Under the pieces are notes generated by a model. That model saw nothing but the letters and a program-made list of their open reading frames with translations, made no database searches and was not told where the DNA came from. Position numbers and translations under genes: made by a program. A DNA stretch of 22,273 nt from Tubiluchus corallicola (lineage: Eukaryota; Animalia; Priapulida): positions 1 through 22,273 of the forward strand of contig JAQGDQ010000456.1 of NCBI GenBank assembly GCA_030141605.1, read 5' to 3'. Shown piece after piece: positions 1-22,273 of this stretch. The first letter of the stretch is position 1. Each line of letters begins with the position of its first letter.

Positions 1-424
1 GATCGTTTCAATAAAACTAATTCATGTTTTACAAAAACCTACACAATTTTGCAAAGCCAGAATAACACAGTCAAAGCTTGTAGAAGTTTGATATCACAAT
101 TTGCAACAATCTGACCATTTTGCAGTTTAGTAAACTGATGATGATGAAGATGACAACGATGACGATGATGGTGATGACGACAAAGATGGTGACGATGATC
201 ACGACGATGTTGATAATGATAATGAAGACAATGACGATGATGACAATAACGACGATTTTACGATGACGACGATGATGACAATGATGATGATGATGACGAC
301 GATCACGATGATGATGACGACGAAGACGGAAACCACGATCACGATGATGATGATGACGACGACGACGATGATGGCGACTATGATCACGATGACGATAATG
401 ATGATGATGACGACAGTAACGACG
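1..424. repeat. Left arm of long inverted repeat (may extend beyond the window)
   Basis: Reverse complement of 858-1281; position n pairs with 1282-n; mismatches at 170, 171, 232, 320 and 406; no indels. Confidence 0.97.
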
Positions 425-546
425 ATTTTACGATGACGATGATGATGATAATAATGACGATGACTATGATGATGATGATGATAATGACGATGATGATGAT
501 GACGACAACGACGACGACTGTGACGACAGCAATAACAATGATGACA
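136..546. repeat. Degenerate (GAT/GAC/AAT)n trinucleotide low-complexity tract (mirrored at 858-1146)
   Basis: Visible gatgatgacgacgat arrays; these account for the Ile/Val/His/Met-rich ORFs in the track. Confidence 0.95.
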
Positions 547-611
547 ATATGAAGAACTACTAAGAAAACTGATAAGAATAATAGCATACACACTATGTCA
601 ATAAAACTTAC

Positions 612-789
612 TATGCTATCGGCGTCCAGAAAGACGCATTTGTTGAAATCATCCAGATCTGACCACGCCCTGAGCTTTGTCAGTGTGATACCTAACTCTG
701 GTCTGTCCATCAGAGCTAACCTGTCCGTGTCATGGCTGTCCATGGCTGACACTTCCCTCACGTGATCATACACGTCACCAAGTAGCCGC
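612..789 (-). CDS. GYG1: Glycogenin catalytic-domain exon (equivalent to human GYG1 exon 3), inverted relative to the rest of the gene
   Basis: Minus strand reads tctcag|G CGG CTA... RLLGDVYDHVREVSAMDSHDTDRLALMDRPELGITLTKLRAWSDLDDFNKCVFLDADSI|gtaagt. It has the glycogenin RPELGxTLTKL and KCVFxDAD (DxD) motifs. 178 nt, phase 2 to phase 0, joining in frame to the exon at 2403. Confidence 0.93.
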
Positions 790-857
790 CTGAGACATCG
801 GTAATATCAACGTTACACGCATCACAACTAATCAATTTTAAAGGAAACGTCAACGCG

Positions 858-1281
858 CGTCGTTACTGTCGTCATTATCATCATTATCGTCATCGTGATC
901 ATAGTCGCCATCATCGTCGTCGTCGTCATCATCATCATCGTGATCGTGGTTTCCGTCTTCGGCGTCATCATCATCGTGATCGTCGTCATCATCATCATCA
1001 TTGTCATCATCGTCGTCATCGTAAAATCGTCGTTATTGTCATCATCGTCGTTGTCTTCATTATCATTATCAACATCGTCGTGATCATCGTCACCATCTTT
1101 GTCGTCATCATTATCATCGTCATCGTTGTCATCTTCATCATCATCAGTTTACTAAACTGCAAAATGGTCAGATTGTTGCAAATTGTGATATCAAACTTCT
1201 ACAAGCTTTGACTGTGTTATTCTGGCTTTGCAAAATTGTGTAGGTTTTTGTAAAACATGAATTAGTTTTATTGAAACGATC
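858..1281. repeat. Right arm of long inverted repeat
   Basis: 419/424 identical to the reverse complement of 1-424; includes ~135 bp of non-repetitive sequence plus (ATC/GTC)n low-complexity DNA. Confidence 0.97.
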
Positions 1282-1376: not shown

Positions 1377-1847
1377 AGGATAACCACACGATTGATAAAT
1401 GTTAGCAATTGTTTCTAATATTTGAATAATTACCTTGCAAAGGTAATAATTGCAGCAACCGAACACAGCTATCGCTTACGTCACAAACTAACGACAGTTT
1501 GTGCAACGGTAGACATGTTCCCTGCGCGTCACGCATGAAAGACGCTGATGTGATGTCACGACAATGAGCTCTACGTCGCTCTGACCTCACAGACAAAACC
1601 TGCATTTCATGATCGTGCTTATCGCGGTATTGCATCTATTTTTCGGTCACACGAATGTGACAAAAAGGTGCCACTGCCTGTCTCAGTGGAGCCGCTGAGC
1701 CGTGCGTAGCTTTGAAAGTTTAGCAAATTTAACTATCCGAGGTGGTTATTTAATCTAAGCTTTGATTTTAAAAAAGCTGTTGTAGTTTTCAGTATTTTAG
1801 AGCATACTTTATTTTGAAATAATGTCTATACAATCGTCCGGTTTCCT
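1377..1847. mobile_element. Non-autonomous DNA transposon, Kolobok-like (TTAA target, AGG termini)
   Basis: TTAA(1373-1376)|aggataaccacacgattg ... caatcgtccggtttcct|TTAA(1848-1851); imperfect TIR (1 indel, 2 mismatches); internal gtcac/gtgac motifs. Confidence 0.6.
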
Positions 1848-1984
1848 TTAAGGAAAGTTATTTTTAGCCTGGGAACGGTTCTCTTATATAGCTAAATAAA
1901 GGCAGCAATAATGATGGCCAATAGCCGCAACATTTACGTTTTCAAAAAACATCTAAATGCATCTTTTTGTCTGTGTAAAATATC

Positions 1985-2110
1985 GTAACGTGCCCATTTT
2001 CCATCTGGAAAGTCGTGAGTTCGATACTGCGGCCGGGTCATACTAAAGGCTTTAAACATGGTACCTGCTGTTGCCCTGCCTGGCGCGTGGTATTTGGGGT
2101 AAAAGTGGGG
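1985..2110 (+). mobile_element. tRNA-derived SINE fragment (resembles MetaSINE-type central domain, from memory)
   Basis: B-box-like gagttcgatac (2017-2027) followed by ggccgggtcatactaaaggctttaaacatggtacctgctgttgccctgcctggcgc. A-box is degenerate and boundaries are approximate. Confidence 0.55.
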
Positions 2111-2402
2111 TAATAATAGTCTCTGTTATGTAGTTGTAGATTGTTATTTACATTCGACAAAAAATCTCTTTAGAGTTTATGTTAATATTTGATCCAAAAA
2201 TCCGATTTCAAATAAAGATTATTATTGTTATTATACTATAATAGGATTGGCTTGATGTCGATGATTCTTATCAATATCTGTTGCTCTTCATCAATGAATC
2301 TTATGCGTGTTCATAAGCAGCTCTTATTCCCCTACACATAATAGTAACGAGGAGGCTTCCCTTATAAGATCAATAATAGCCGCTCTCTATTATTTAAAAT
2401 AG

Positions 2403-2565
2403 GTGCTGACTAATATAGACGAGTTATTCAAAGAGCCCGGGTTTGCAGCAGCTCCAGATTACGGGTGGCCCGATATCTTCAACAGTGGGGTGTTCGTCTA
2501 TACGCCTAGTAAAGACACATTCGAAGAACTAGTCAAACTTGCAATTGAGAAGGGCAGTTTTGATG
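2403..2565 (+). CDS. GYG1: Glycogenin exon (human exon 4 equivalent)
   Basis: aaaatag|GTG ... TTT GAT G|gtatgt; [54 protein letters not shown] with AAPD-GWPD-FNSGVFV motif; 163 nt, phase 0 to 1. Confidence 0.96.
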
Positions 2566-2708: not shown

Positions 2709-3212
2709 AGTGTTACAGTACATCCAGTGTTACAGTACAGCTAGTGTTATGGTACAGCCTGTGTTACGGTACATCCAGTGTTACAGTACAGCCAGCGTTA
2801 CGGTACAGCAATGTTATGGTACAGCCTGTGTTACAGTACATCCAGTGTTACAGTACAGCCAGCGTTACGGTACGGCAATGTTATCGTACAGCCTGTGTTA
2901 CAATACAGCCAGCGTTACGGTACGGCAATGTTATGATACAGCCTGTGTTACAATACATCCAGTGTTACAGTACAGCCAGCGTTACGGTACGGCAATGTTA
3001 TCGTACAGCCTGTGTTACAATACAGCCAGCGTTACGGTACGGCAATGTTATGATACAGCCTGTGTTACAATACATCCAGTGTTAACAGTACAGCCAGCGT
3101 TACGGTACGGCAATGTTATCGTACAGCCTGTGTTACAATACAGCCAGCGTTACGGTACGGCAATGTTATGATACAGCCTGTGTTACAGTACAGCCAGTGT
3201 AATGGTACAGCC
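2709..3212. repeat. Intronic minisatellite, 16-17 bp unit (agtgttacagtacagcc), about 30 copies
   Basis: Directly visible tandem units with recurring variant order. Confidence 0.95.
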
Positions 3213-3349
3213 AAGAGAATTAAACATTAGCTTTACACTGTACAAACCAGTTCATATGTACTAACAGGGTTAATTTGTACTACGAAACAAAAAGCACAGC
3301 ACACAGATTCATTTTGTTACAAAGTAATGCTTTTCTCTGTCAAAGTAAG

Positions 3350-6330
3350 CTCTAGTTAGTACTTTCTGCTGTGCAGACCAAAATCAATCTCTGGTTAGTA
3401 CTTTTTGCTTTGTGGTGCAGAGTCATCCCTTGTTAGTACTATTTGTTCTGTGTACAGTCAACCTGTGGGTAGTACTTTTTACTCTGTAGTGCAAAGTCAA
3501 CCTGTGGGTAGTACTTTTTACTCTGTAGTGCAAAGTTAACCTATGGTTAGTACTTTTTTACTCTGTAGTACAAAGGCAACCTATGGTTAGTACTTTTTAC
3601 TCTGTAGTACAAAGTCAACCTATGGTTAGCACTTTTTATTCTGTAGTACAAAGTCAACCTATGGTTAGTACTTTTTACTCTGTAGTACAAAGTCAACCTA
3701 TGGTTAGTACTTTTTACTCTGTAGTACAAAGTCAACCTATGGTTAGTACTTTTTATTCTGTAGTACAAAGTCAACCTGTGGTTAGTATTTTTTACTCTGT
3801 AGTACAAGATCAACCTGTAGTTGTACTTTTTACTCTGTAGTGAAAAATCCACCAGTAGTTAGTACCTTTTACTCTGTAGTACAAGATCAACCTGTGGGTA
3901 GTACTTTTTACTCTGTAGTGCAAAGTCAACCTGTTGTTAGTACTTTTTACTCTGTAGTGCAAAGTCAACCTGTTGTTAGTACTTTTTACTCTGTACTGCA
4001 AAGTCAACCTGTGGGTAGTACCTTTTACTCTGTAGTACAAAGCCAACCTGTGGGTAGTACTTTTTACTCTGTAGTGCAAAGTCAACCTGTTGTTAGTACC
4101 TTTTTCTCTGTAGTACAAAATCAACCTGTGGGTAGTACTTTTTGCTCTGTAGTGCAAAGCCAACCTGTAGTTGTACTTTTTACTCTGTACTGCAAAGCCA
4201 ACCTGAAGTTAGTACTTTTTACTCAGTACTACAAAATCAACCTGTAGTTAGTACTTTTTACTATGTAGTGCAAGTCAACTTGTTGTTAGTACTTTTTACT
4301 CTGTACTGCAAAGCCAACCTGAAGTTAGTACTTTTTACTCAGTACTACAAAATCAACCTGTAGTTAGTACTTTTTACTATGTAGTGCAAGTCAACCTGTA
4401 GTTAGTACTTTTTACTCTGTAGTGCAAAGTCAACCTGTTGTTAGTACTTTTTACTCTGTAGTGAAAAATCCACCAGTAGTTAGTACCTTTTACTCTGTAG
4501 TACAAAGTGTGGTGTTTTTTTTGTGTGGTTGTTGTTGTTTTTTTTGTGTTTGTGGGTGTTTTTTGTTGTGTGGTGTGTTGTTTTTTTTGTTGGTGGTTGT
4601 TTTTTTGTTTTGTGTTGTTTTTTTTGTGTGGTAACTGTGTTAGTACTTTTTACTCTGTAGTGCAAAGTCGACCTGTTGTTAGTACTTTTTACTCTGTAGT
4701 GAAAATGTGTTGTTTTTTTGTGTATCAACCTGTAGTTGTACTTTTTACTCTGTAGTGCAAAGTTAGCCTGTTGGTAGTACTTTTTACTCTGTAGTACAAA
4801 GTCAACCTGTTGGCTGTACTTTTTACTCTGTAATGGAAAGCCAACCTGTGGGTAGTACCTTTTACTCTGTAGTACAAAGTCAACCTGTGGGTAGTACTTT
4901 TTACTATGTAGTGCAAAGTTAAATTGTTGTTAGTACTTTTTACTCTGTAGTGGAAAGCCAACCTGTTGTTAGTACTTTTTACTCTGTACTGAAAAGTCAA
5001 CCTCTGGGTAGTACATTTTACTCTGTAGTACAAAGTCAACCTGTGGGTAGTACTTTTTACTCTGTAGTGCAAAGTCAACCTGTTGTTAGTACTTTTTACT
5101 CTGTAGTGGAAAGCCAACCTGTGGGTAGTACTTTTTACTCTGTAGTGCAAAGCCAAGCTGTTGTTAGTACTTTTTACTCTGTACTGCAAAGTCAACCTGT
5201 GGGTAGTACTTTTTACTCTGTACTGCAAAGTCAACCTGTGGGTAGTACTTTTTACTCTGTAGTGCAAAGTCAACCTGTTGTTAGTACTTTTTACTCTGTG
5301 CTGCAAAGTCAACCTGTGGGTAGTACCTTTCACTCTGTAGTACAAAGTCAACCTGCGGGTAGTACTTTTTACTCTGTAGTGCAAAGTCAACCTGTTGTTA
5401 GTACCTTTTTCTCTGTAGTACAAGATCAACCTGTAGTTGTACTTTTTACTCTGTAGTGCAAAGTCAACCTGTTGTTAGTACCTTTTACTCTGTAGTACAA
5501 AATCAACCTGTGGGTAGTACTTTTTGCTCTGTAGTGCAAAGCCAACCTGTAGTTGTACTTTTTACTCTGTACTGAAAAGCCAACCTGAAGTTAGTACTTT
5601 TTACTCAGTACTACAAAATCAACCTGTAGTTAGTACTTTTTACTATGTAGTACAAAGCCAACCTGTGGGTAGTACTTTTTACTCTGTAGTGCAAAGTCAA
5701 CCTGTTGTTAGTACTTTTTACTCTGTACTGCAAAGCCAACCTGAAGTTAGTACTTTTTACTCAGTACTACAAAATCAACCTGTAGTTAGTACTTTTTACT
5801 ATGTAGTACAAGATCAACCTGTAGTTGTACTTTTTACTCTGTAGTGCAAAGTCAACCTGTTGTTAGTACCTTTTACTCTGTAGTACAAGATCAACCTGTA
5901 GTTGTACTTTTTACTCTGTAGTGCAAAGTCAACCTGTTGTTAGTACCTTTTACTCTGTAGTGCAAAGTCAACCTGTGGGTAGTACCTTTTTCTCTGTAAT
6001 ACAAAATCAACCTGTTGTTAGTACTTTTTTCTCTGTAGTACAAGATCAACCTGTAGTTGTACATTTTACTCTGTAGTGCAAAGCCAACCTGTGGGTAGTA
6101 CCTTTTACTCTGTAGTACAAAATAAACATATAATTAAGCATTTTGCATTGTTGCACAAAACAAGTAGTTGGTTAGTACCTTTCGTTTTGTAAAGCAAGAT
6201 CACACACCGGCTAGTACTTTTTGCTTTGTGGTGCAAAATCAATTAGTAGCTAGACTTTTTTGCACTGCAGTCGCAATCAATTCTTTGTTAGCACTTTTTG
6301 GTTTGTAGTGGCAAAATCAGCCTGTAGTTT
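3350..6330. repeat. Intronic minisatellite, 39-bp unit (caacctgtgggtagtactttttactctgtagtgcaaagt); homogeneous core ~3459-6120, degenerate edges
   Basis: Directly visible; 13-aa periodic ORFs in the track; interrupted by G/T-only stretches at 4508-4632 and 4706-4723. Confidence 0.97.
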
Positions 6331-6546: not shown

Positions 6547-6658
6547 GTGGTGATCAAGGAATTCTTAATCAGTACTTTGGCGATGACTGGAAAAGACTGT
6601 CTTGTTTGTACAATGCGCAGTACAGCTCTGTTTACACGTATCTGCCCGCTTATCAACA
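6547..6658 (+). CDS. GYG1: Glycogenin exon with GGDQG motif and the autoglucosylated Tyr equivalent
   Basis: tttcag|GT GGT GAT CAA GGA ... CAA CA|gtatgt; GGDQGILNQYFGDDWKRLSCLYNAQYSSVYTYLPAYQ. The Tyr codon at 6633-6635 aligns with the human IYSYLPAF acceptor Tyr. 112 nt, phase 1 to 2; not in the ORF track. Confidence 0.95.
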
Positions 6659-7658: not shown

Positions 7659-7845
7659 GTTTGGTCAGGGCATCAAAGTTGTTCACTTCCTTGGTGCTTG
7701 GAAGCCATGGATGGTTTCTGTCGATCCTCAAACACGTCAGGTGACGTCTACATTGGCGCAGGAGAATCCACAAGCAAGAACATGGCTCGCGATGTTTGAG
7801 GACAAAGTACTTCCTAAACTCAGTCATCAGTTATTGCAGAAATTG
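7659..7845 (+). CDS. GYG1: Glycogenin exon ending the catalytic domain (HFLGxxKPW)
   Basis: ttatag|G TTT GGT ... AAA TTG|gtaagc; FGQGIKVVHFLGAWKPWMVSVDPQTRQVTSTLAQENPQARTWLAMFEDKVLPKLSHQLLQKL; 187 nt, phase 2 to 0. Confidence 0.93.
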
Positions 7846-8548: not shown

Positions 8549-8662
8549 CAATCTGCTTTACCATTGCCAAATAAACCAGTTCCACCATTAGAAGACATTA
8601 GAACAGAAGAAGCAAGTGGACAACAACTTGAACCAGCAGCTGATATGGAACCAACAGTCGAG
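8549..8662 (+). CDS. GYG1: Glycogenin linker exon (Pro/Glu-rich, symmetric phase 0-0)
   Basis: tttttgcag|CAA ... GAG|gtatca; QSALPLPNKPVPPLEDIRTEEASGQQLEPAADMEPTVE; 114 nt, stop-free and phase-compatible with both neighbours. No family motif, so the call rests on splice signals and composition. Confidence 0.75.
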
Positions 8663-10246: not shown

Positions 10247-10654
10247 AGAAACTTGGTTACTATAGTCAGAGGCAGTACTAATGTGTGTAGTAGTTGAGGA
10301 TGTCATAGTCTTCAAGAAACTTGGTTACTATTGTTAGAGGCAGCACTAATGTGTGTAACAGTTGAGGATGCCATAGTCTTCGAGAAACTTGGTTACTATT
10401 GTTAGAGGCAGTACTAATGTGTGTAGTAGTTGAGGATGTCATAGTCTTCAAGAAACTTGGTTACTGTTGTTAGAGGCAGCACTAATGTGTGTAACAGTTG
10501 AGGATGCCATAGTCTTCGAGAAACTTGGTTACTATTGTTAGAGGCAGTACTAATGTGTGTAGTAGTTGAGGATGTCATAGTCTTCAAGAAACTTGGTTAC
10601 TGTTGTTAGAGGCAGCACTAATGTGTGTAACAGTTGAGGATGCCATAGTCTTCA
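10247..10654. repeat. 68-bp tandem repeat x6 with alternating A/B variants (136-bp dimer x3)
   Basis: agaaacttggttac starts at 10247, 10315, 10383, 10451, 10519, 10587; gtact..gtagtag..gatgtc alternates with gcact..gtaacag..gatgcc. Confidence 0.95.
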
Positions 10655-10865
10655 AGGTCTTCTTGTGCAGGTCTTGTTTATTTGTTTGCCTGTCAGAGCT
10701 CATTCCATTGCCTCATTGCCTGAGGATAAATAAGATATTTTCTATGAGCTGCTTTCCCGTGAAACTTCCTACTAATGAGCAGGATGTAACATTGATGTGT
10801 TTAGTGCAAGTGAGGCATTTTGTCCAAGAAGGCTCTTAAGGCTCTGGCACAATAATTATCATTGA

Positions 10866-12062
10866 TTTTTGTGGAGTTGTCTTTGTCCTCTATGTTTTTA
10901 TGGAGTTGCCTTTGTCTGCTGTGTTTTTATGGAGTTGTCTTTGTCCTTGATGTTTATATGAAGTTGTCTTTGTCCTCTCATGGTTTTTATGTAGTTGATT
11001 TTGTCCTCTATATTTTTATGTAGTTGCTTTGTCCTCAATGCTTTTTATGTAATTGCCTTTGTCCTCTATATTTTTTTTGTGTAGTTGCCTTTTTCCTCAT
11101 TATTTTTTATTGAGTTGTCTTTGTCCTCTATGTTTTTTGTGTAGTTGCCTTTGTCCTCTATGTTTTTATGTAGTCGTCTTTGTCCTCTATGTTTTTTGTG
11201 TAGTTGTCTTTGTCCTCTATGTTTTTATGGAGTTGCCTTTGTCCTCTATGTTTTATGGAGTTGCCTTTGTCCTCTATGTTCTTTATGGAACTGCCTCTGT
11301 CCTGCATATTTTTCTGGAGTTGTCTTGTCCTCTATGTTTTTATGGAGTTGCCTTTGTCCTCTATGTTTTTATGGAGTTGTCTTTGTCCTCTATATTTTTA
11401 TGGAGTTGCCTTTGTCCTCTATGTTTTTTATGTAGTCGTCTTTGTCCTCTATGTTTTTTGTGTAGTTGTCTTTGTCATCTATGTTTTTTGTGTAGTTGTC
11501 TTTGTCCTCTATGTTTTTATGGAGTTGCCTTTGTCCTCTATGTTTTATGGAGTTGCCTTTGTCCTCTATGTTCTTTATGGAACTGCCTCTGTCCTGCATA
11601 TTTTTCTGGAGTTGTCTTGTCCTCTATGTTTTTATGGAGTTGCCTTTGTCCTCTATGTTTTTATGGAGTTGTCTTTGTCCTCTATATTTTTATGGAGTTG
11701 CCTTTGTCCTCTATGTTTTTTATGTAGTCGTCTTTGTCCTCTATGTTTTTTGTGTAGTTGTCTTTGTCATCTATGTTTTTTGTGTAGTTGTCTTTGTCCT
11801 CTATGTTTTTATGGAGTTGCCTTTGTCGTCTATGTTTTATGGAGTTGCCTTTGTCCTCTATGTTCTTTATGGAGTTGCCTCTGTCCTGCATATTTTTCTG
11901 GAGTTGTCTTGTCCTCTATGTTTTTATGGAGTTGCCTTTGTCCTCTATGTTTTTATGGAGTTGCCTTTGTCCTCTATGTTTTTATGGAGTTGCCTTTGTC
12001 CTCTATATTTTCATGGAGTTGCCTTTGTCCTCTATGTTTTTCTGGAGTTGTCTTGTCCTCTA
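10866..12062. repeat. ~29-bp minisatellite (tttttatggagttgcctttgtcctctatg), about 40 copies, with 292-bp higher-order period
   Basis: Directly visible; identical ORF starts at 11204, 11496 and 11788 show the 292-bp period. Confidence 0.95.
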
Positions 12063-12223
12063 TTATGTTCCTCCAAAAACAAGGATATCTACTGTCCCTG
12101 TTTTTAAGCTCTAAATTTTCTATTTATTCATCATTATTTATTTACTCTGATTATAAACTGCTTATTTCACGGATTTAAAAACTTAAACTCAACCATTGTT
12201 TTTAGCAATTAGAATTTTTCCAG

Positions 12224-12369
12224 GAATCGATAACTACTCCTGTAGTGCCGACAACATCTGACGGTTCTCCAGTGTCTAGTACTCCCACACCACCAGCTCC
12301 ACCTATCGATGGTTTTATGCAAATGTCATTCTCTGAAGGACCTGTGCCTGATGACGTCCAGCAGCTAAG
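12224..12369 (+). CDS. GYG1: Glycogenin linker exon (Pro/Thr/Ser-rich); alternative in-frame acceptor would start it at 12206
   Basis: tttttccag|GAA ... CTA AG|gtaatt; ESITTPVVPTTSDGSPVSSTPTPPAPPIDGFMQMSFSEGPVPDDVQQLR; phase 0 to 2, matching the last exon. Confidence 0.8.
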
Positions 12370-14868: not shown

Positions 14869-16045
14869 ATGGGAATTTGGAACTCCGGATTTCCTTGGCC
14901 AGGACAAGTTTGAAAATATCCTTGATCATCTGAAGAGTAAGACCAATGATAAAAGCAAGAGTGCTGATCATCAATATGATGGCGATCATGATGTTGAAGA
15001 ACGTGCTGCAGGTACATCTGGGCTAGCAGCCGATGCAAGTCCTGCCCCTTGCGCAACACCAAAATTTGTTGGAGAGGACAAGACGTTTACCATGCCCCAT
15101 TTGCATGAAGAAGATGGTGTAGTTAGGCTGGCTAGCACTCTCGAAGCTGATCCACCAGCCGTAGTGAGAGGTGAAAGTACTGACTTGCCTTCAGAATCAG
15201 TATCATCAGTGACTGAAGACCAATCATTTCTAACTAGTGTTCCAGAAAGGACAATAAAATATACAACAGAGACTACAGCAAGTGACAGTTTACCATCACA
15301 TGTCAGTGAAACTTTAGAAAGTGATGTAGAACAAAAGAATGATGTGGTTGTAGAACAGGTTGATGGCATGACAGAGGATACAGAATATATTGTCTCTGAA
15401 CCAAAGACAGTTTTAGATACAAATGTTATAGAAGCGTATGTTGACACCGGTGAGTTTGATGCTAAAGAAACTGAGTCACGTCCGGAACATCCTTTGAAAG
15501 AAATCTACGAATCATCTTTGAAAGAGGACAGTAAGCAAGTAGAGGATATGAATGAAGTTGATCACAGGCCACCAGAGCGAAAACGTTCATTGTTCATGGA
15601 AAGACCGCACTCCTGTGAAAACTTTGAGAAACGCAGTGTGGAACAAACTAACAACGAAGGTGAAGAGGCTGTTGATTCCGATGAGGAGTCAAGAAAAAGT
15701 TATAGTGAATCTGAGTTTGAAATTAGCAAAGACGGTACTCTTACTAGTTCTTTCTTAAATGAAGAAGCAAAAGCTAATTTCATTGATGTTGAAGCTGTCG
15801 AAAATGACGCAAAAATCTATGGAGACCTTTCAGAATCTGAAGACGAACTTACACAGGAGAGTACCCGACGTGCATCAACTGCAGGGTCCGAGACCTCGGA
15901 TATCGATAAAAAGGCAACGCAACTCACACCTGAAGCTGAACAAGAGAAAGAGTTATGGGAGACAAGTGGACCAGACTATTTGGGCCAACATAGTTTTGAT
16001 AAAATTTTGGCTCATTTGAAGTCGCAAATAGGAGAGAAAAGTTAA
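14869..16045 (+). CDS. GYG1: Glycogenin terminal coding exon: GS-binding motif, long acidic spacer, second GS-binding motif
   Basis: ttttactttgtag|A TGG GAA; WEFGTPDFLGQDKFENILDHLKSK ... WETSGPDYLGQHSFDKILAHLKSQIGEKS*. Both resemble the human GYG1 C-terminus [22 protein letters not shown]. The first ~64 aa of the track ORF 14675..16045 are intronic. Confidence 0.9.
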
Positions 16046-19456: not shown

Positions 19457-19511
19457 CTGAAAAGAAACTTCTTAACAATTTAAAAAGTTTGTGTAACCTA
19501 GTAACATGTTA

Positions 19512-22273
19512 CTGACCTTCCGAGTGTGCGTCATAATGTGACACTGACTCACCTTCCCAGTGTTCACCATAATGTGACACTGACTCACCTTCCCAGTGTT
19601 CACCATAATGTGACACTGACTCATCTTCCCAGTGTTCACCATAATGTGACACTGACTCACCTTCCCAGTGTTCATCATAATGCAACACTGACTCATCTTC
19701 CCAGTGTTCATCATAATGTGACACTGACTCATCTTCCCAGTGTTCATCATAATGTGACACTGACTCATCTTCCCAGTGTTCATCATAATGTGACACTGAC
19801 TCATCTTCCCAGTGTGCACCATAATGTGACACTGACTCACCTTCCCAGTGTTCATCATAGTGCAACACTGATTCATTTTCCCAGTGTTCATCATAATGTG
19901 ACACTGACTTATCTTCCCAGTGTTCATCATAATGTGACACTGACTCATCTTCCCAGTGTGCACCATAATGTGACACTGACTCACCTTCCCAGTGTGCACC
20001 ATAATGTGACACTGACTCACCTTCCCAGTGTGCACCATAATGTGACACTGACTCACCTTCCTGGTGTGCACCATAATGTGACACTGACTTATCTTCCCAG
20101 TGTTCATCATAATGTGACACTGACTTATCTTCCTAGTGTGCACCATAATGTGACACTGACTTATCTTCCCAGTGTTCATCATAATGTGACACTGACTTAT
20201 CTTCCCAGTGTGCACCATAATGTGACACTGACTCACCTTCCCAGTGTTCACCATAATGTGACACTGACTCATCTTCCCAGTGTGCACCATAATGTGACAT
20301 TGACTCACCTTCCTGGTGTGCACCATAATGTGACATTGACTCACCTTCCCAGTGTTCATCATAATGTGACAATGACTCATCTTCCTAGTGTGCACCATAA
20401 TGTGACACTGACTTATCTTCCCAGTGTTCACCATAATGTGACACTGACTCATCTTCCCAGTGTGCACCATAATGCGACACTGACTCACCTTCCCAGTGTT
20501 CACCATAATGTGACAATGACTCATCTTCCCAGTGTTCACCATAATGCGACACTGACTCATCTTCCCAGTGTTCACCATAATGTGACACTGACTCATCTTC
20601 CCAGTGAGCACCATAATGCAACACTGACTCACCTTCCCAGTGTTCACCATAATGCGACACTGACTCACCTTCCCAGTGTTCACCATAATGTGACACTGAC
20701 TCACCTTCCCGGCATCACCATAATGTGACACTGACTCACCTTCCCAGTATTCATCGTAATGCGACACTGACTCATCTTCCCAGTGTTCACCATAATGTGA
20801 CACTGACTCACCTTCCCAGTGTTCACCATAATGCGACATTGACTCACCTTCCTAGTTTTCACCATAATGTGACACTGACTCATCTTCCCAGTGTTCACCA
20901 TAATGCAACACTGACTCACCTTCCCAGTGTTCATCATAATGTGACACTGACTCACCTTCCCAGTGTTCATCATAATGTGACACTGACTCACCTTCCCACT
21001 GTGCATCATAATGTGACACTGACTCACCTTCCCAGTAGGCACCATAATGTGACACTGACGCACCTTCCCAGCAGGGACCATAATGTGACACTGACTCACC
21101 TTCCCAGCAGGCACCATAATATGACACTGACTCACCTTCCCGGCAGGCACCATAATGTGACACTGACTCACCTTCCCGGCATCACCATAATGTGACACTG
21201 ACTCACCTTCCCGGCAGGCACCATAATGCGACACTGACTCCCCTTACCGGCATCACCATAATGTGACACTGACTCACCTTCCCAGCAGGCACCATAATGT
21301 GACACTGACTCACCTTCCCAGTGAGCACCATAATGTGACACTGACTCACCTTCCCGGCATCACCATAATGTGACACTGACTCACCTTCCCGGCATCACCA
21401 TAATGTGACACTGACTCACCTTCCCAGCAGGCACCATAATGTGACACTGACTCACCTTCCCAGCAGGCACCATAATGTGACACTGACTCACCTTCCCGGC
21501 AGGCACCATAATGTGACACTGACTCACCTTCCCGGCATCACCATAATGTGACACTGACTCACCTTCCCAGTAAGCACCATAATGTGACACTGACTCACCA
21601 TAACGTGACACTGACTCACCTTCCCGGCAGGCACCATAATGTGACACCGACTCACCTTCCCGGCAGGCACCATAATGTGACACTGACTCACCTTCCCAGC
21701 AGGCACCATAATGTGACACTGACTCACCTTCCCAGCAGGCACGATAATGTAACACTGACTCACCTTCCCGGCAGGCACCATAATGTGACACTGACTCATC
21801 TTCCCAGTGTTCACCATAATGTGACACTGACTCATCTTCCCAGTGTTCACCATAATGTGACACTGACTCATCTTCCCAGTGTTCACCATAATGTGACACT
21901 GACTCATCTTCCCAGTGTTCACCATAATGCAACACTGATTCATTTTCCCAGTGTTCATCATAATGTGACACTGACTCATCTTCCCAGTGTGCATCATAAT
22001 GCAACACTGACTCACCTTCCCAGTGTTCATCATAATGTGACACTGACTCACCTTCCCAGTGTTCACCATAATGCGACATTGACTCACCTTCCTAGTGTTC
22101 ACCATAATGTGACACTGACTCACCTTCCTAGTGTTCACCATAATGTGACACTGACTCATCTTCCCAGTGTTCACCATAATGCAACACTGACTCACCTTAC
22201 CAGTGTTCATCATAATGTGACACTGACTCACCTTCCCACTGTGCATCATAATGTGACACTGACTCACCTTCCC
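19512..22273. repeat. 36-bp minisatellite (cataatgtgacactgactcaccttcccagtgttcac), about 76 copies, running off the window end
   Basis: Directly visible; interspersed 35-bp variants (cccggcatcac) shift frames; variant blocks gtgttcac vs gcaggcac. Confidence 0.97.

What the first reader, a model, noticed from the sequence alone, without database searches (positions are those of the whole stretch)
1..1281. Essential glycogenin exon lies antisense inside a 424-bp inverted repeat: candidate invertible exon switch
Seen: the exon carrying TKL and the DAD metal-binding motif (612-789) is intact, with canonical splice sites and the right phase, but is on the opposite strand from the other six exons. 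It sits in the loop (425-857) of a 98.8% identical inverted repeat. Reverse-complementing only the loop gives acceptor-exon-gtaagt-intron running seamlessly into 858 onward. Inference, four options: (a) recombination between the arms flips the exon, giving ON/OFF alleles or somatic switching; (b) trans-splicing from an antisense transcript, as in Drosophila mod(mdg4); (c) genomic fold-back duplication with a second partial copy running leftwards; (d) misoriented loop or amplification/assembly chimera. Option (d) is a serious candidate. The 5 arm differences argue against a same-molecule fold-back but could be allelic.
Basis: partly seen in the sequence, partly recalled or inferred. Interest (0 to 1): 0.85.

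Follow-up and report, generated by a model that had tools for sequence, protein, structure and literature searches.

The report
Fold-back chimera flips a glycogenin exon
An intact glycogenin exon sits backwards between two mirror-image repeats at the very start of this sequence, but a deep public DNA run of matching sequence appears to hold that repeat only once, so the flip is likely a sequencing or assembly fold-back and not a genetic switch.

Summary
In detail: arms 1-424 and 858-1281 (5 substitutions) flank a 433-nt loop holding an intact minus-strand glycogenin exon (612-789) that splices in frame with six plus-strand exons. The switch reading is not supported. (1) The 424/425 join is the old one: the microsatellite and a 23-nt repeat unit run through it, whereas 857/858 joins a cut transposon-like end to mid-microsatellite. 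(2) In DNA run X1, one contig runs unbranched across the arm's outer end at depth 147, against 174 (exon) and 170 (downstream); two arms would give about 340. (3) That contig carries the left-arm letters at 1111-1112 while joined to the downstream flank, so these differences are likely allelic. The window is likely an ordinary one-strand gene whose first 857 bases are a folded-back copy (inverted chimera, about 0.8). A rare real fold-back in the sequenced individual is not excluded (about 0.13). No read across 857/858 or 424/425 was seen, no RNA run was listed, and X1 may be another individual. The scan noted fold-back palindromes in two other genomes, none with an exon.

The parts
1..424 (-). 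Left arm: reverse-complement copy of intron sequence 858-1281, running to base 1; likely the folded-back, artefactual copy
   Evidence: single-copy depth of the arm in X1
425..611 (-). 5' part of the intron after the exon (GTAAGT donor at 611-606), ending in microsatellite that continues through 424/425; this is the native join
   Evidence: 23-nt exact and 41 of 46 match to a sister unit inside the arm
612..789 (-). Glycogenin exon with TKL and DxD motifs, 178 nt, intact
   Evidence: X1 contig 614-847 identical, depth 174.3
790..857 (-). 68 nt of the upstream intron (acceptor side); on the plus strand 838-841 is TTAA and 842-857 is a 16-nt stub resembling a Kolobok-type element end
   Evidence: termini rule from PMC9587614
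857..858 (.). Derived junction (fold-back point); an 8-bp palindrome at 853-860 straddles it
858..1281 (+). Right arm: the native intron copy, continuous with downstream intron
   Evidence: X1 contig 1025-1304, depth 146.7, unbroken across 1281
1377..1847 (.). High-copy TTAA-flanked element with AGG..CCT ends (Kolobok-like, non-autonomous, inferred) in the same intron
   Evidence: (summed depth up to 481,023)
2403..2565 (+). Glycogenin exon, 163 nt
6547..6658 (+). Glycogenin exon, 112 nt
7659..7845 (+). Glycogenin exon, 187 nt
8549..8662 (+). Predicted linker exon, 114 nt (splice sites and phase only, no homology)
12224..12369 (+). Predicted linker exon, 146 nt (splice sites and phase only, no homology)
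14869..16045 (+). Last coding exon, 391 codons plus stop, with a glycogenin C-terminal-like motif at each end

Best explanation
The first 857 bases of the window are likely a folded-back, reverse-strand copy of an ordinary glycogenin gene, an inverted chimera carried into the end of an assembled contig. The native order is inferred to be upstream intron, exon, intron start, microsatellite arm, rest of gene, all on one strand. A strand copied leftwards through the arm and the exon would have turned round 68 nt past the acceptor and re-primed 433 nt back at the arm, giving reverse(arm) + reverse(loop) + arm + rest of gene. The upstream exons were lost from the contig in the process. The five arm differences would be alleles of a heterozygous animal, placed on the two arms by read correction or polishing. 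Shown: the geometry, which join is old, single-copy-level depth and an unbranched arm in X1, and left-arm letters on the contig that joins the downstream flank. Inferred: that the junction is not in the animal, the library step that made it, and the polishing step.
For: Old join at 424/425: the microsatellite runs 136-549 on one strand without a break, and a 23-nt exact match (41 of 46 over a longer stretch) spans it and recurs inside the arm; no repeat of 5+5 nt spans 857/858, where a TTAA+AGGAAAC element-like end stops after 16 nt. X1 per-contig depths: exon 174.3, arm 146.7, 1811-2039 156.8, 2256-2700 170; two allelic contigs at 2162-2285 have 118 and 95.7 (table 8). Two fixed arms predict about 340 and a heterozygous duplication about 255. 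One X1 contig alone accounts for all depth over 1185-1304 (bins 146.7 and 84.9 = 146.7 x 44/76) and crosses the arm end at 1281 without a branch or loose end. Its only 2 differences from the right arm in 280 nt are C,C at 1111-1112, the left-arm letters; it keeps the right-arm G at 1050. Arm divergence (5 of 424) does not differ from X1-to-window divergence (12 of 1435 over six contigs, Fisher p 0.56). The arm runs exactly to base 1. Inverted chimeras are intramolecular with a distance peak at 250-300 nt (PMC9984789, passages), reach assemblies (PMC6218980; 10.64898/2026.06.11.730069), and occur without amplification (0.5% of unamplified PacBio reads flagged; 0.18-7.33% of nanopore ligation reads, PMC13141652).
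Against: A same-molecule fold-back should give identical arms; the 5 differences need an extra step (correction or polishing) that I could not observe, and the sites 876 and 962 lie in a masked block and were not tested. No contig bridged 424/425 or showed the native sequence upstream of 847, so the one-strand order is inferred. X1 may be another individual, contigs drop rare variants, and the tool warns that depth is not a copy number. I could not establish that base 1 is a contig end (no genome held), nor the library method. X2, the only independent study laid, has uneven depth (4.7 to 38) and says nothing on copy number.
Confidence: 0.8

Rival explanations
1. A real but private fold-back inverted duplication (one haplotype or a somatic clone of the sequenced animal) that separates the gene from its first exons and would make a null allele.
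For: Same geometry as human fold-back inverted duplications with a single-copy spacer (PMC3907307, passages). The 5 arm differences could reflect age or a switch between homologues. An 8-bp palindrome straddles the junction. X1 may be another individual.
Against: X1 shows neither doubled nor 1.5-fold depth on the arm or downstream. X1 has contigs identical to the window at 614-847 and 2162-2285, so it carries at least closely related haplotypes. The 433-nt spacer is below the 766-70,466 bp range of the 21 sequenced human junctions. The arm differences include letters seen in a single-copy arm, which fits alleles better than divergence after duplication.
Confidence: 0.13
2. An invertible exon: recombination between two real arms flips the loop and switches glycogenin on or off, as bacterial intragenic invertons do.
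For: The exon is intact and flipping the loop restores acceptor, exon, donor and intron in order. A chimera predicts the same.
Against: Both states need two arms with different outer flanks; X1 shows one arm, one flank and single-copy-level depth. The arm is a piece cut out of the middle of a microsatellite and not a defined recombination site. The paper search for invertible intragenic segments listed only bacterial cases (6 listed of 12).
Confidence: 0.02
3. The exon is natively antisense and is joined by trans-splicing, as in Drosophila mod(mdg4).
For: Opposite-strand exons are trans-spliced in mod(mdg4) (PMC4387717, passages). The orientation of the exon relative to the downstream gene was not bridged directly in any run.
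Against: Exons 1-2 are not on the minus strand within the window, so two trans-splicing events would be needed for a constitutive catalytic exon. The 13-nt TSA core is absent from 1-2700 on both strands at up to 2 mismatches. With one arm in X1 and the 424/425 join being the old one, the exon's donor intron leads directly into the downstream gene.
Confidence: 0.02
4. Two real arms exist and the assembler merely put the loop in the wrong orientation.
For: Loops between long inverted repeats are easily misoriented (own knowledge).
Against: Needs two arms with different outer flanks; X1 shows one.
Confidence: 0.03

Closest known systems
Inverted (fold-back) chimeras of long-read libraries: MDA inverted chimeras (PMC9984789, PMC6218980, 10.64898/2026.06.11.730069) and nanopore ligation inverted-repeat reads (PMC13141652); passages read
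   Same: Two pieces of one locus on opposite strands, a few hundred bases apart, giving an apparent inverted duplication with a single-copy loop; the duplication is not seen in a deep DNA run.
   Different: The arms differ at 5 sites instead of being identical; the priming overlap and the library type could not be determined.
Human fold-back inverted duplications with a disomic spacer (PMC3907307; passages read)
   Same: Same geometry: inverted copy, single-copy spacer, loss of what lay beyond the fold.
   Different: Spacer is 433 nt against 766-70,466 bp; no copy-number gain in X1.
Bacterial intragenic invertons (PMC10028968; passages read)
   Same: A coding segment between inverted repeats whose orientation decides the product.
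   Different: Those have two real repeats and reads in both orientations; here the second arm is not supported, and no orientation-spanning reads were available.
Drosophila mod(mdg4) trans-splicing (PMC4387717; passages read)
   Same: An exon on the strand opposite to the rest of its gene.
   Different: mod(mdg4) adds alternative 3' exons in one step using an intronic U1-binding core; here an internal constitutive exon would need two steps and the core motif is absent.
Animal glycogenin (glycosyltransferase family 8; human GYG1, Daphnia pulex P0004)
   Same: TKL and DxD motifs; in human GYG1 the DxD aspartate 102 lies in exon 3 and is needed for autoglucosylation (PMC5203857, passages); Daphnia genomic frame P0001 leaves the protein at the same point after the DxD motif.
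   Different: Long acidic C-terminal linker and two C-terminal-like motifs instead of one.

Membership tests
Inverted (fold-back) chimera | Two segments of the same locus on opposite strands at short distance (under 10 kb, peak 250-300 nt) | tested here: met
   433 nt; range from PMC9984789
Inverted (fold-back) chimera | Duplication absent from bulk genomic DNA | tested here: met
   In X1 only: depth 146.7 against 174.3 and 170, no branch at 1281; X1 may be another individual
Inverted (fold-back) chimera | Arms identical because both come from one molecule | tested here: inconclusive
   5 differences; 2 of the 3 covered sites show left-arm letters on the single X1 arm contig, so likely allelic; 2 sites masked
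Inverted (fold-back) chimera | 5-8 nt priming overlap at the junction | not testable with these tools
   Native sequence beyond 857 not recovered
Inverted (fold-back) chimera | Junction held by one molecule or one library only | not testable with these tools
   Raw reads of the assembly were not available; only contigs were laid
Invertible DNA segment (inverton) | Two genomic inverted repeats with distinct outer flanks | tested here: not met
   One arm contig and one flank in X1
Invertible DNA segment (inverton) | Reads spanning the segment in both orientations | not testable with these tools
   No listed piece spans the loop and an arm
Invertible DNA segment (inverton) | A recombinase that acts on the repeats | not tested
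   No genome held
mod(mdg4)-type trans-splicing | TSA 13-nt U1-binding core in the donor intron | tested here: not met
   0 matches at up to 2 mismatches, both strands of 1-2700; the motif is insect-derived, so this is a weak test
mod(mdg4)-type trans-splicing | Exons natively on opposite strands | tested here: inconclusive
   Not bridged directly; junction anatomy and single arm point to one strand
mod(mdg4)-type trans-splicing | mRNA joining opposite-strand exons | not testable with these tools
   No RNA holder listed
In vivo fold-back inverted duplication | Copy gain of the arm and flank, single-copy spacer | tested here: not met
   No gain in X1; untested in the sequenced individual if that is not X1
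Glycogenin | GT8 domain with DxD motif and C-terminal glycogenin motif | tested here: met
   PDB glycogenin-1 E 5e-14 for the exon; blastp E 3e-68; Pfam PF01501 only weak on single exons, E 0.088 and 0.0016; C-terminal motif weak, E 0.21

The most novel reading that the evidence does not exclude
One allele of this animal really carries a second, inverted copy of the intron arm upstream of the catalytic exon, so that recombination flips the exon and switches glycogenin on or off: an invertible exon in an animal housekeeping gene, absent from the individual behind run X1.
Probability: 0.03. Interest if true: 0.85.

Novelty: not a real feature. Interest (0 to 1): 0.07.

Why it matters
If the best explanation holds, nothing biological: the gene is an ordinary glycogenin and the contig start should be trimmed and re-joined to its upstream exons. 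It is a useful warning for the scan: an intact exon facing backwards inside an inverted repeat that reaches base 1 is what a fold-back chimera looks like, and differences between the arms do not prove the repeat is real in a heterozygous animal. If native reads did show both orientations, it would be a DNA-inversion switch of an exon in an animal, for which my one paper search on this point listed no precedent.

Tried and rejected
No whole genome is held, so the sequence left of base 1 and exons 1-2 could not be looked up. No RNA holder listed; no conclusion on expression. None of the 4 runs laid covers 848-880 (X1 and X2 again), but X1 also lacks 527-611, which X2 partly holds, so this hole is not used as evidence. 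The microsatellite blocks 425-526 and 869-1024 were masked by the tool, so 424/425 could not be bridged and sites 876 and 962 could not be typed. X2 seems to show C at 1112 on its contig starting at 1025 (88 letters from the end), but that row sums many repeat contigs and the contig dropped out at 97% likeness, so it is not counted. A scan of metagenome contigs for the 20 bases ending at 857 gave 1 match, a 51% GC contig with no further similarity, taken as chance. The homologue search with the exon gave 11 proteins of 52 candidates, best 68% identity, none from this species. Earlier scan notes: nothing near this window, no look-alike of the loop, none holding all the fold-back words. A restriction-ligation origin was considered because base 1 starts GATC, and rejected for the junction because 857/858 is not a GATC site. 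A plain low-complexity misjoin was rejected because the loop side of the junction is not microsatellite. No supplementary files were read.

Full report
What is there. The window begins with a 424-nt arm (1-424) whose reverse complement lies at 858-1281, with 5 substitutions and no gaps. The 433-nt loop holds a 178-nt minus-strand exon (612-789) with CAG and GTAAGT splice sites and the TKL and DAD motifs. It is glycogenin: E 5e-14 to solved glycogenin-1, and in phase with six plus-strand exons giving 691 codons and one stop, 49% identical over residues 3-210 to Daphnia pulex glycogenin. Two of the six exons (8549-8662, 12224-12369) rest on splice sites and phase only. The exon is essential by homology: the DxD aspartate of human GYG1 lies in exon 3 and its loss abolishes autoglucosylation (PMC5203857, passages). 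The first 50 or so residues are not encoded in the window on either strand. No whole genome is held, so what lies left of base 1 is unknown.

Which join is old. Most of the arm is a degenerate (GAT/GAC)n microsatellite. On the left it runs from about 136 to 549, straight through the arm boundary at 424/425. A 23-nt exact match spans that boundary and recurs inside the arm (41 of 46 over a longer stretch); nothing repeated spans 857/858. At 857/858 the microsatellite starts abruptly after a 16-nt stub that follows TTAA and begins AGGAAAC, like the end of the high-copy TTAA-flanked element at 1377-1847. TTAA target sites with RR..YY ends define Kolobok elements (PMC9587614, passages); the assignment is a resemblance only. 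So the ancestral order is exon, intron start, arm, rest of gene on one strand, and 857/858 is the derived junction. This holds for every model, but it shows that the arm is an arbitrary piece of intron and not a defined recombination site.

Is the arm present twice? Five runs were listed, none RNA. Four were laid on 425-2700 and two on 527-1330 at 97% likeness. Only X1 is deep. Its contigs have depth 174.3 on the exon (614-847, no differences), 146.7 on the arm (1025-1304), 156.8 at 1811-2039 and 170 at 2256-2700; at 2162-2285 two allelic contigs have 118 and 95.7, one identical to the window. A fixed second arm predicts about 340 on the arm, a heterozygous one about 255. The arm contig is the only one over 1185-1304 (bin depths equal its depth exactly) and crosses the arm's outer end at 1281 with no branch or loose end there. 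An invertible loop needs two arms with different outer flanks, and a longer palindrome needs doubled depth on arm and flank; neither is seen. The tool cautions that depth is not a copy number and that contigs drop rare variants; I compared single high-identity contigs within one run, and treat the result as an inference about that sample.

The five differences. The X1 arm contig covers 3 of the 5 sites. It has the left-arm letters at 1111 and 1112, the right-arm letter at 1050, and no other difference in 280 nt, while continuing into the right-hand flank. The arm divergence (5 of 424) matches the X1-to-window divergence (12 of 1435 over six contigs, Fisher p 0.56). The differences are therefore likely alleles of one locus. 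The other two sites are in a masked block.

Mechanism. The structure reverse(arm) + reverse(loop) + arm + gene is what results when a strand copied leftwards turns round and re-primes 433 nt back. Such inverted chimeras are intramolecular, mostly under 10 kb with a peak at 250-300 nt and 5-8 nt overlaps (PMC9984789, passages). They enter assemblies as false inverted duplications (PMC6218980, passages; 10.64898/2026.06.11.730069, passages), and inverted reads also arise without amplification. A chimera at a contig end would explain the arm reaching base 1 and the missing first exons. Allelic letters on the two arms would come from correction or polishing with reads of both haplotypes; that step is inferred. 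The priming overlap cannot be read because the native sequence beyond 857 was not recovered; an 8-bp palindrome at 853-860 straddles the junction.

Against this reading. No contig bridges either join. X1 may not be the sequenced individual. X2, the one independent study laid, is too shallow and uneven to count copies. Identical arms are expected from one molecule. A real private or somatic fold-back has the same geometry (PMC3907307, passages; spacers there 766-70,466 bp), and I give it 0.13.

Rivals. Invertible exon (0.02): bacterial intragenic invertons have two real repeats and reads in both orientations (PMC10028968, passages); the first is not met in X1, and a search for invertible intragenic segments listed only bacterial papers (6 listed of 12). 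Trans-splicing (0.02): mod(mdg4) uses an intronic 13-nt core to add 3' exons (PMC4387717, passages); the core is absent here at up to 2 mismatches and two trans-splicing steps would be needed. Misoriented loop between two real arms (0.03): needs two arms.

Earlier scan notes. Nothing near this window or like the loop. Two notes on other genomes describe fold-back palindromes; one led me to PMC3907307. Notes on other pieces of this genome call it an invertebrate; I did not test the taxon beyond finding animal glycogenin relatives.

Verdict. Observation confirmed; most likely a fold-back chimera at the start of the sequence and not a feature of the animal. Interest 0.07. No supplementary files were read; PMC9188544 was seen only as a search listing.

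Noticed in passing
window 14870-14959 and 15935-16018: The last coding exon has two copies of the glycogenin C-terminal motif (WE.G.PD.LG...F..I), one at each end of a roughly 330-residue acidic linker. Both match the single C-terminal motif of Daphnia glycogenin weakly (tblastn E 0.014 and 0.028 for P0002); the second matches the peptide chain 4qlb_G at E 0.21. That this motif binds glycogen synthase is recalled. Two sites per chain could change how synthase is tethered.
   Followed up: partly
window 1-4: The window starts exactly at a GATC site (51 sites in 22,273 bases, 0.23% of positions). Possibly chance, or a trace of how the contig was cut.
   Followed up: partly
window 1377-1847: High-copy element with TTAA on both sides and AGG..CCT ends, Kolobok-like; similar ends at 842, about 7620 and about 12785. 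Summed X1 depth suggests thousands of copies.
   Followed up: partly
window 1945-2248: A second high-copy interspersed repeat in the same intron (summed X1 depth up to 668,743 against 170 for unique sequence).
   Followed up: no
window 19511-22273: A 36-bp tandem array of about 77 copies (90-92% matches) runs off the end of the window, as expected at a contig end.
   Followed up: no
window 2709-3213, 3341-6127, 10247-10656, 10866-12063: Intronic minisatellites with 17, 39, 68 and 29-bp units make up a large share of the gene.
   Followed up: no
window 612: Run X2 has C for T at the last base of the exon (Ile to Met after the DxD motif), in one contig of depth 4.7; may be an allele or an error.
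   Followed up: no
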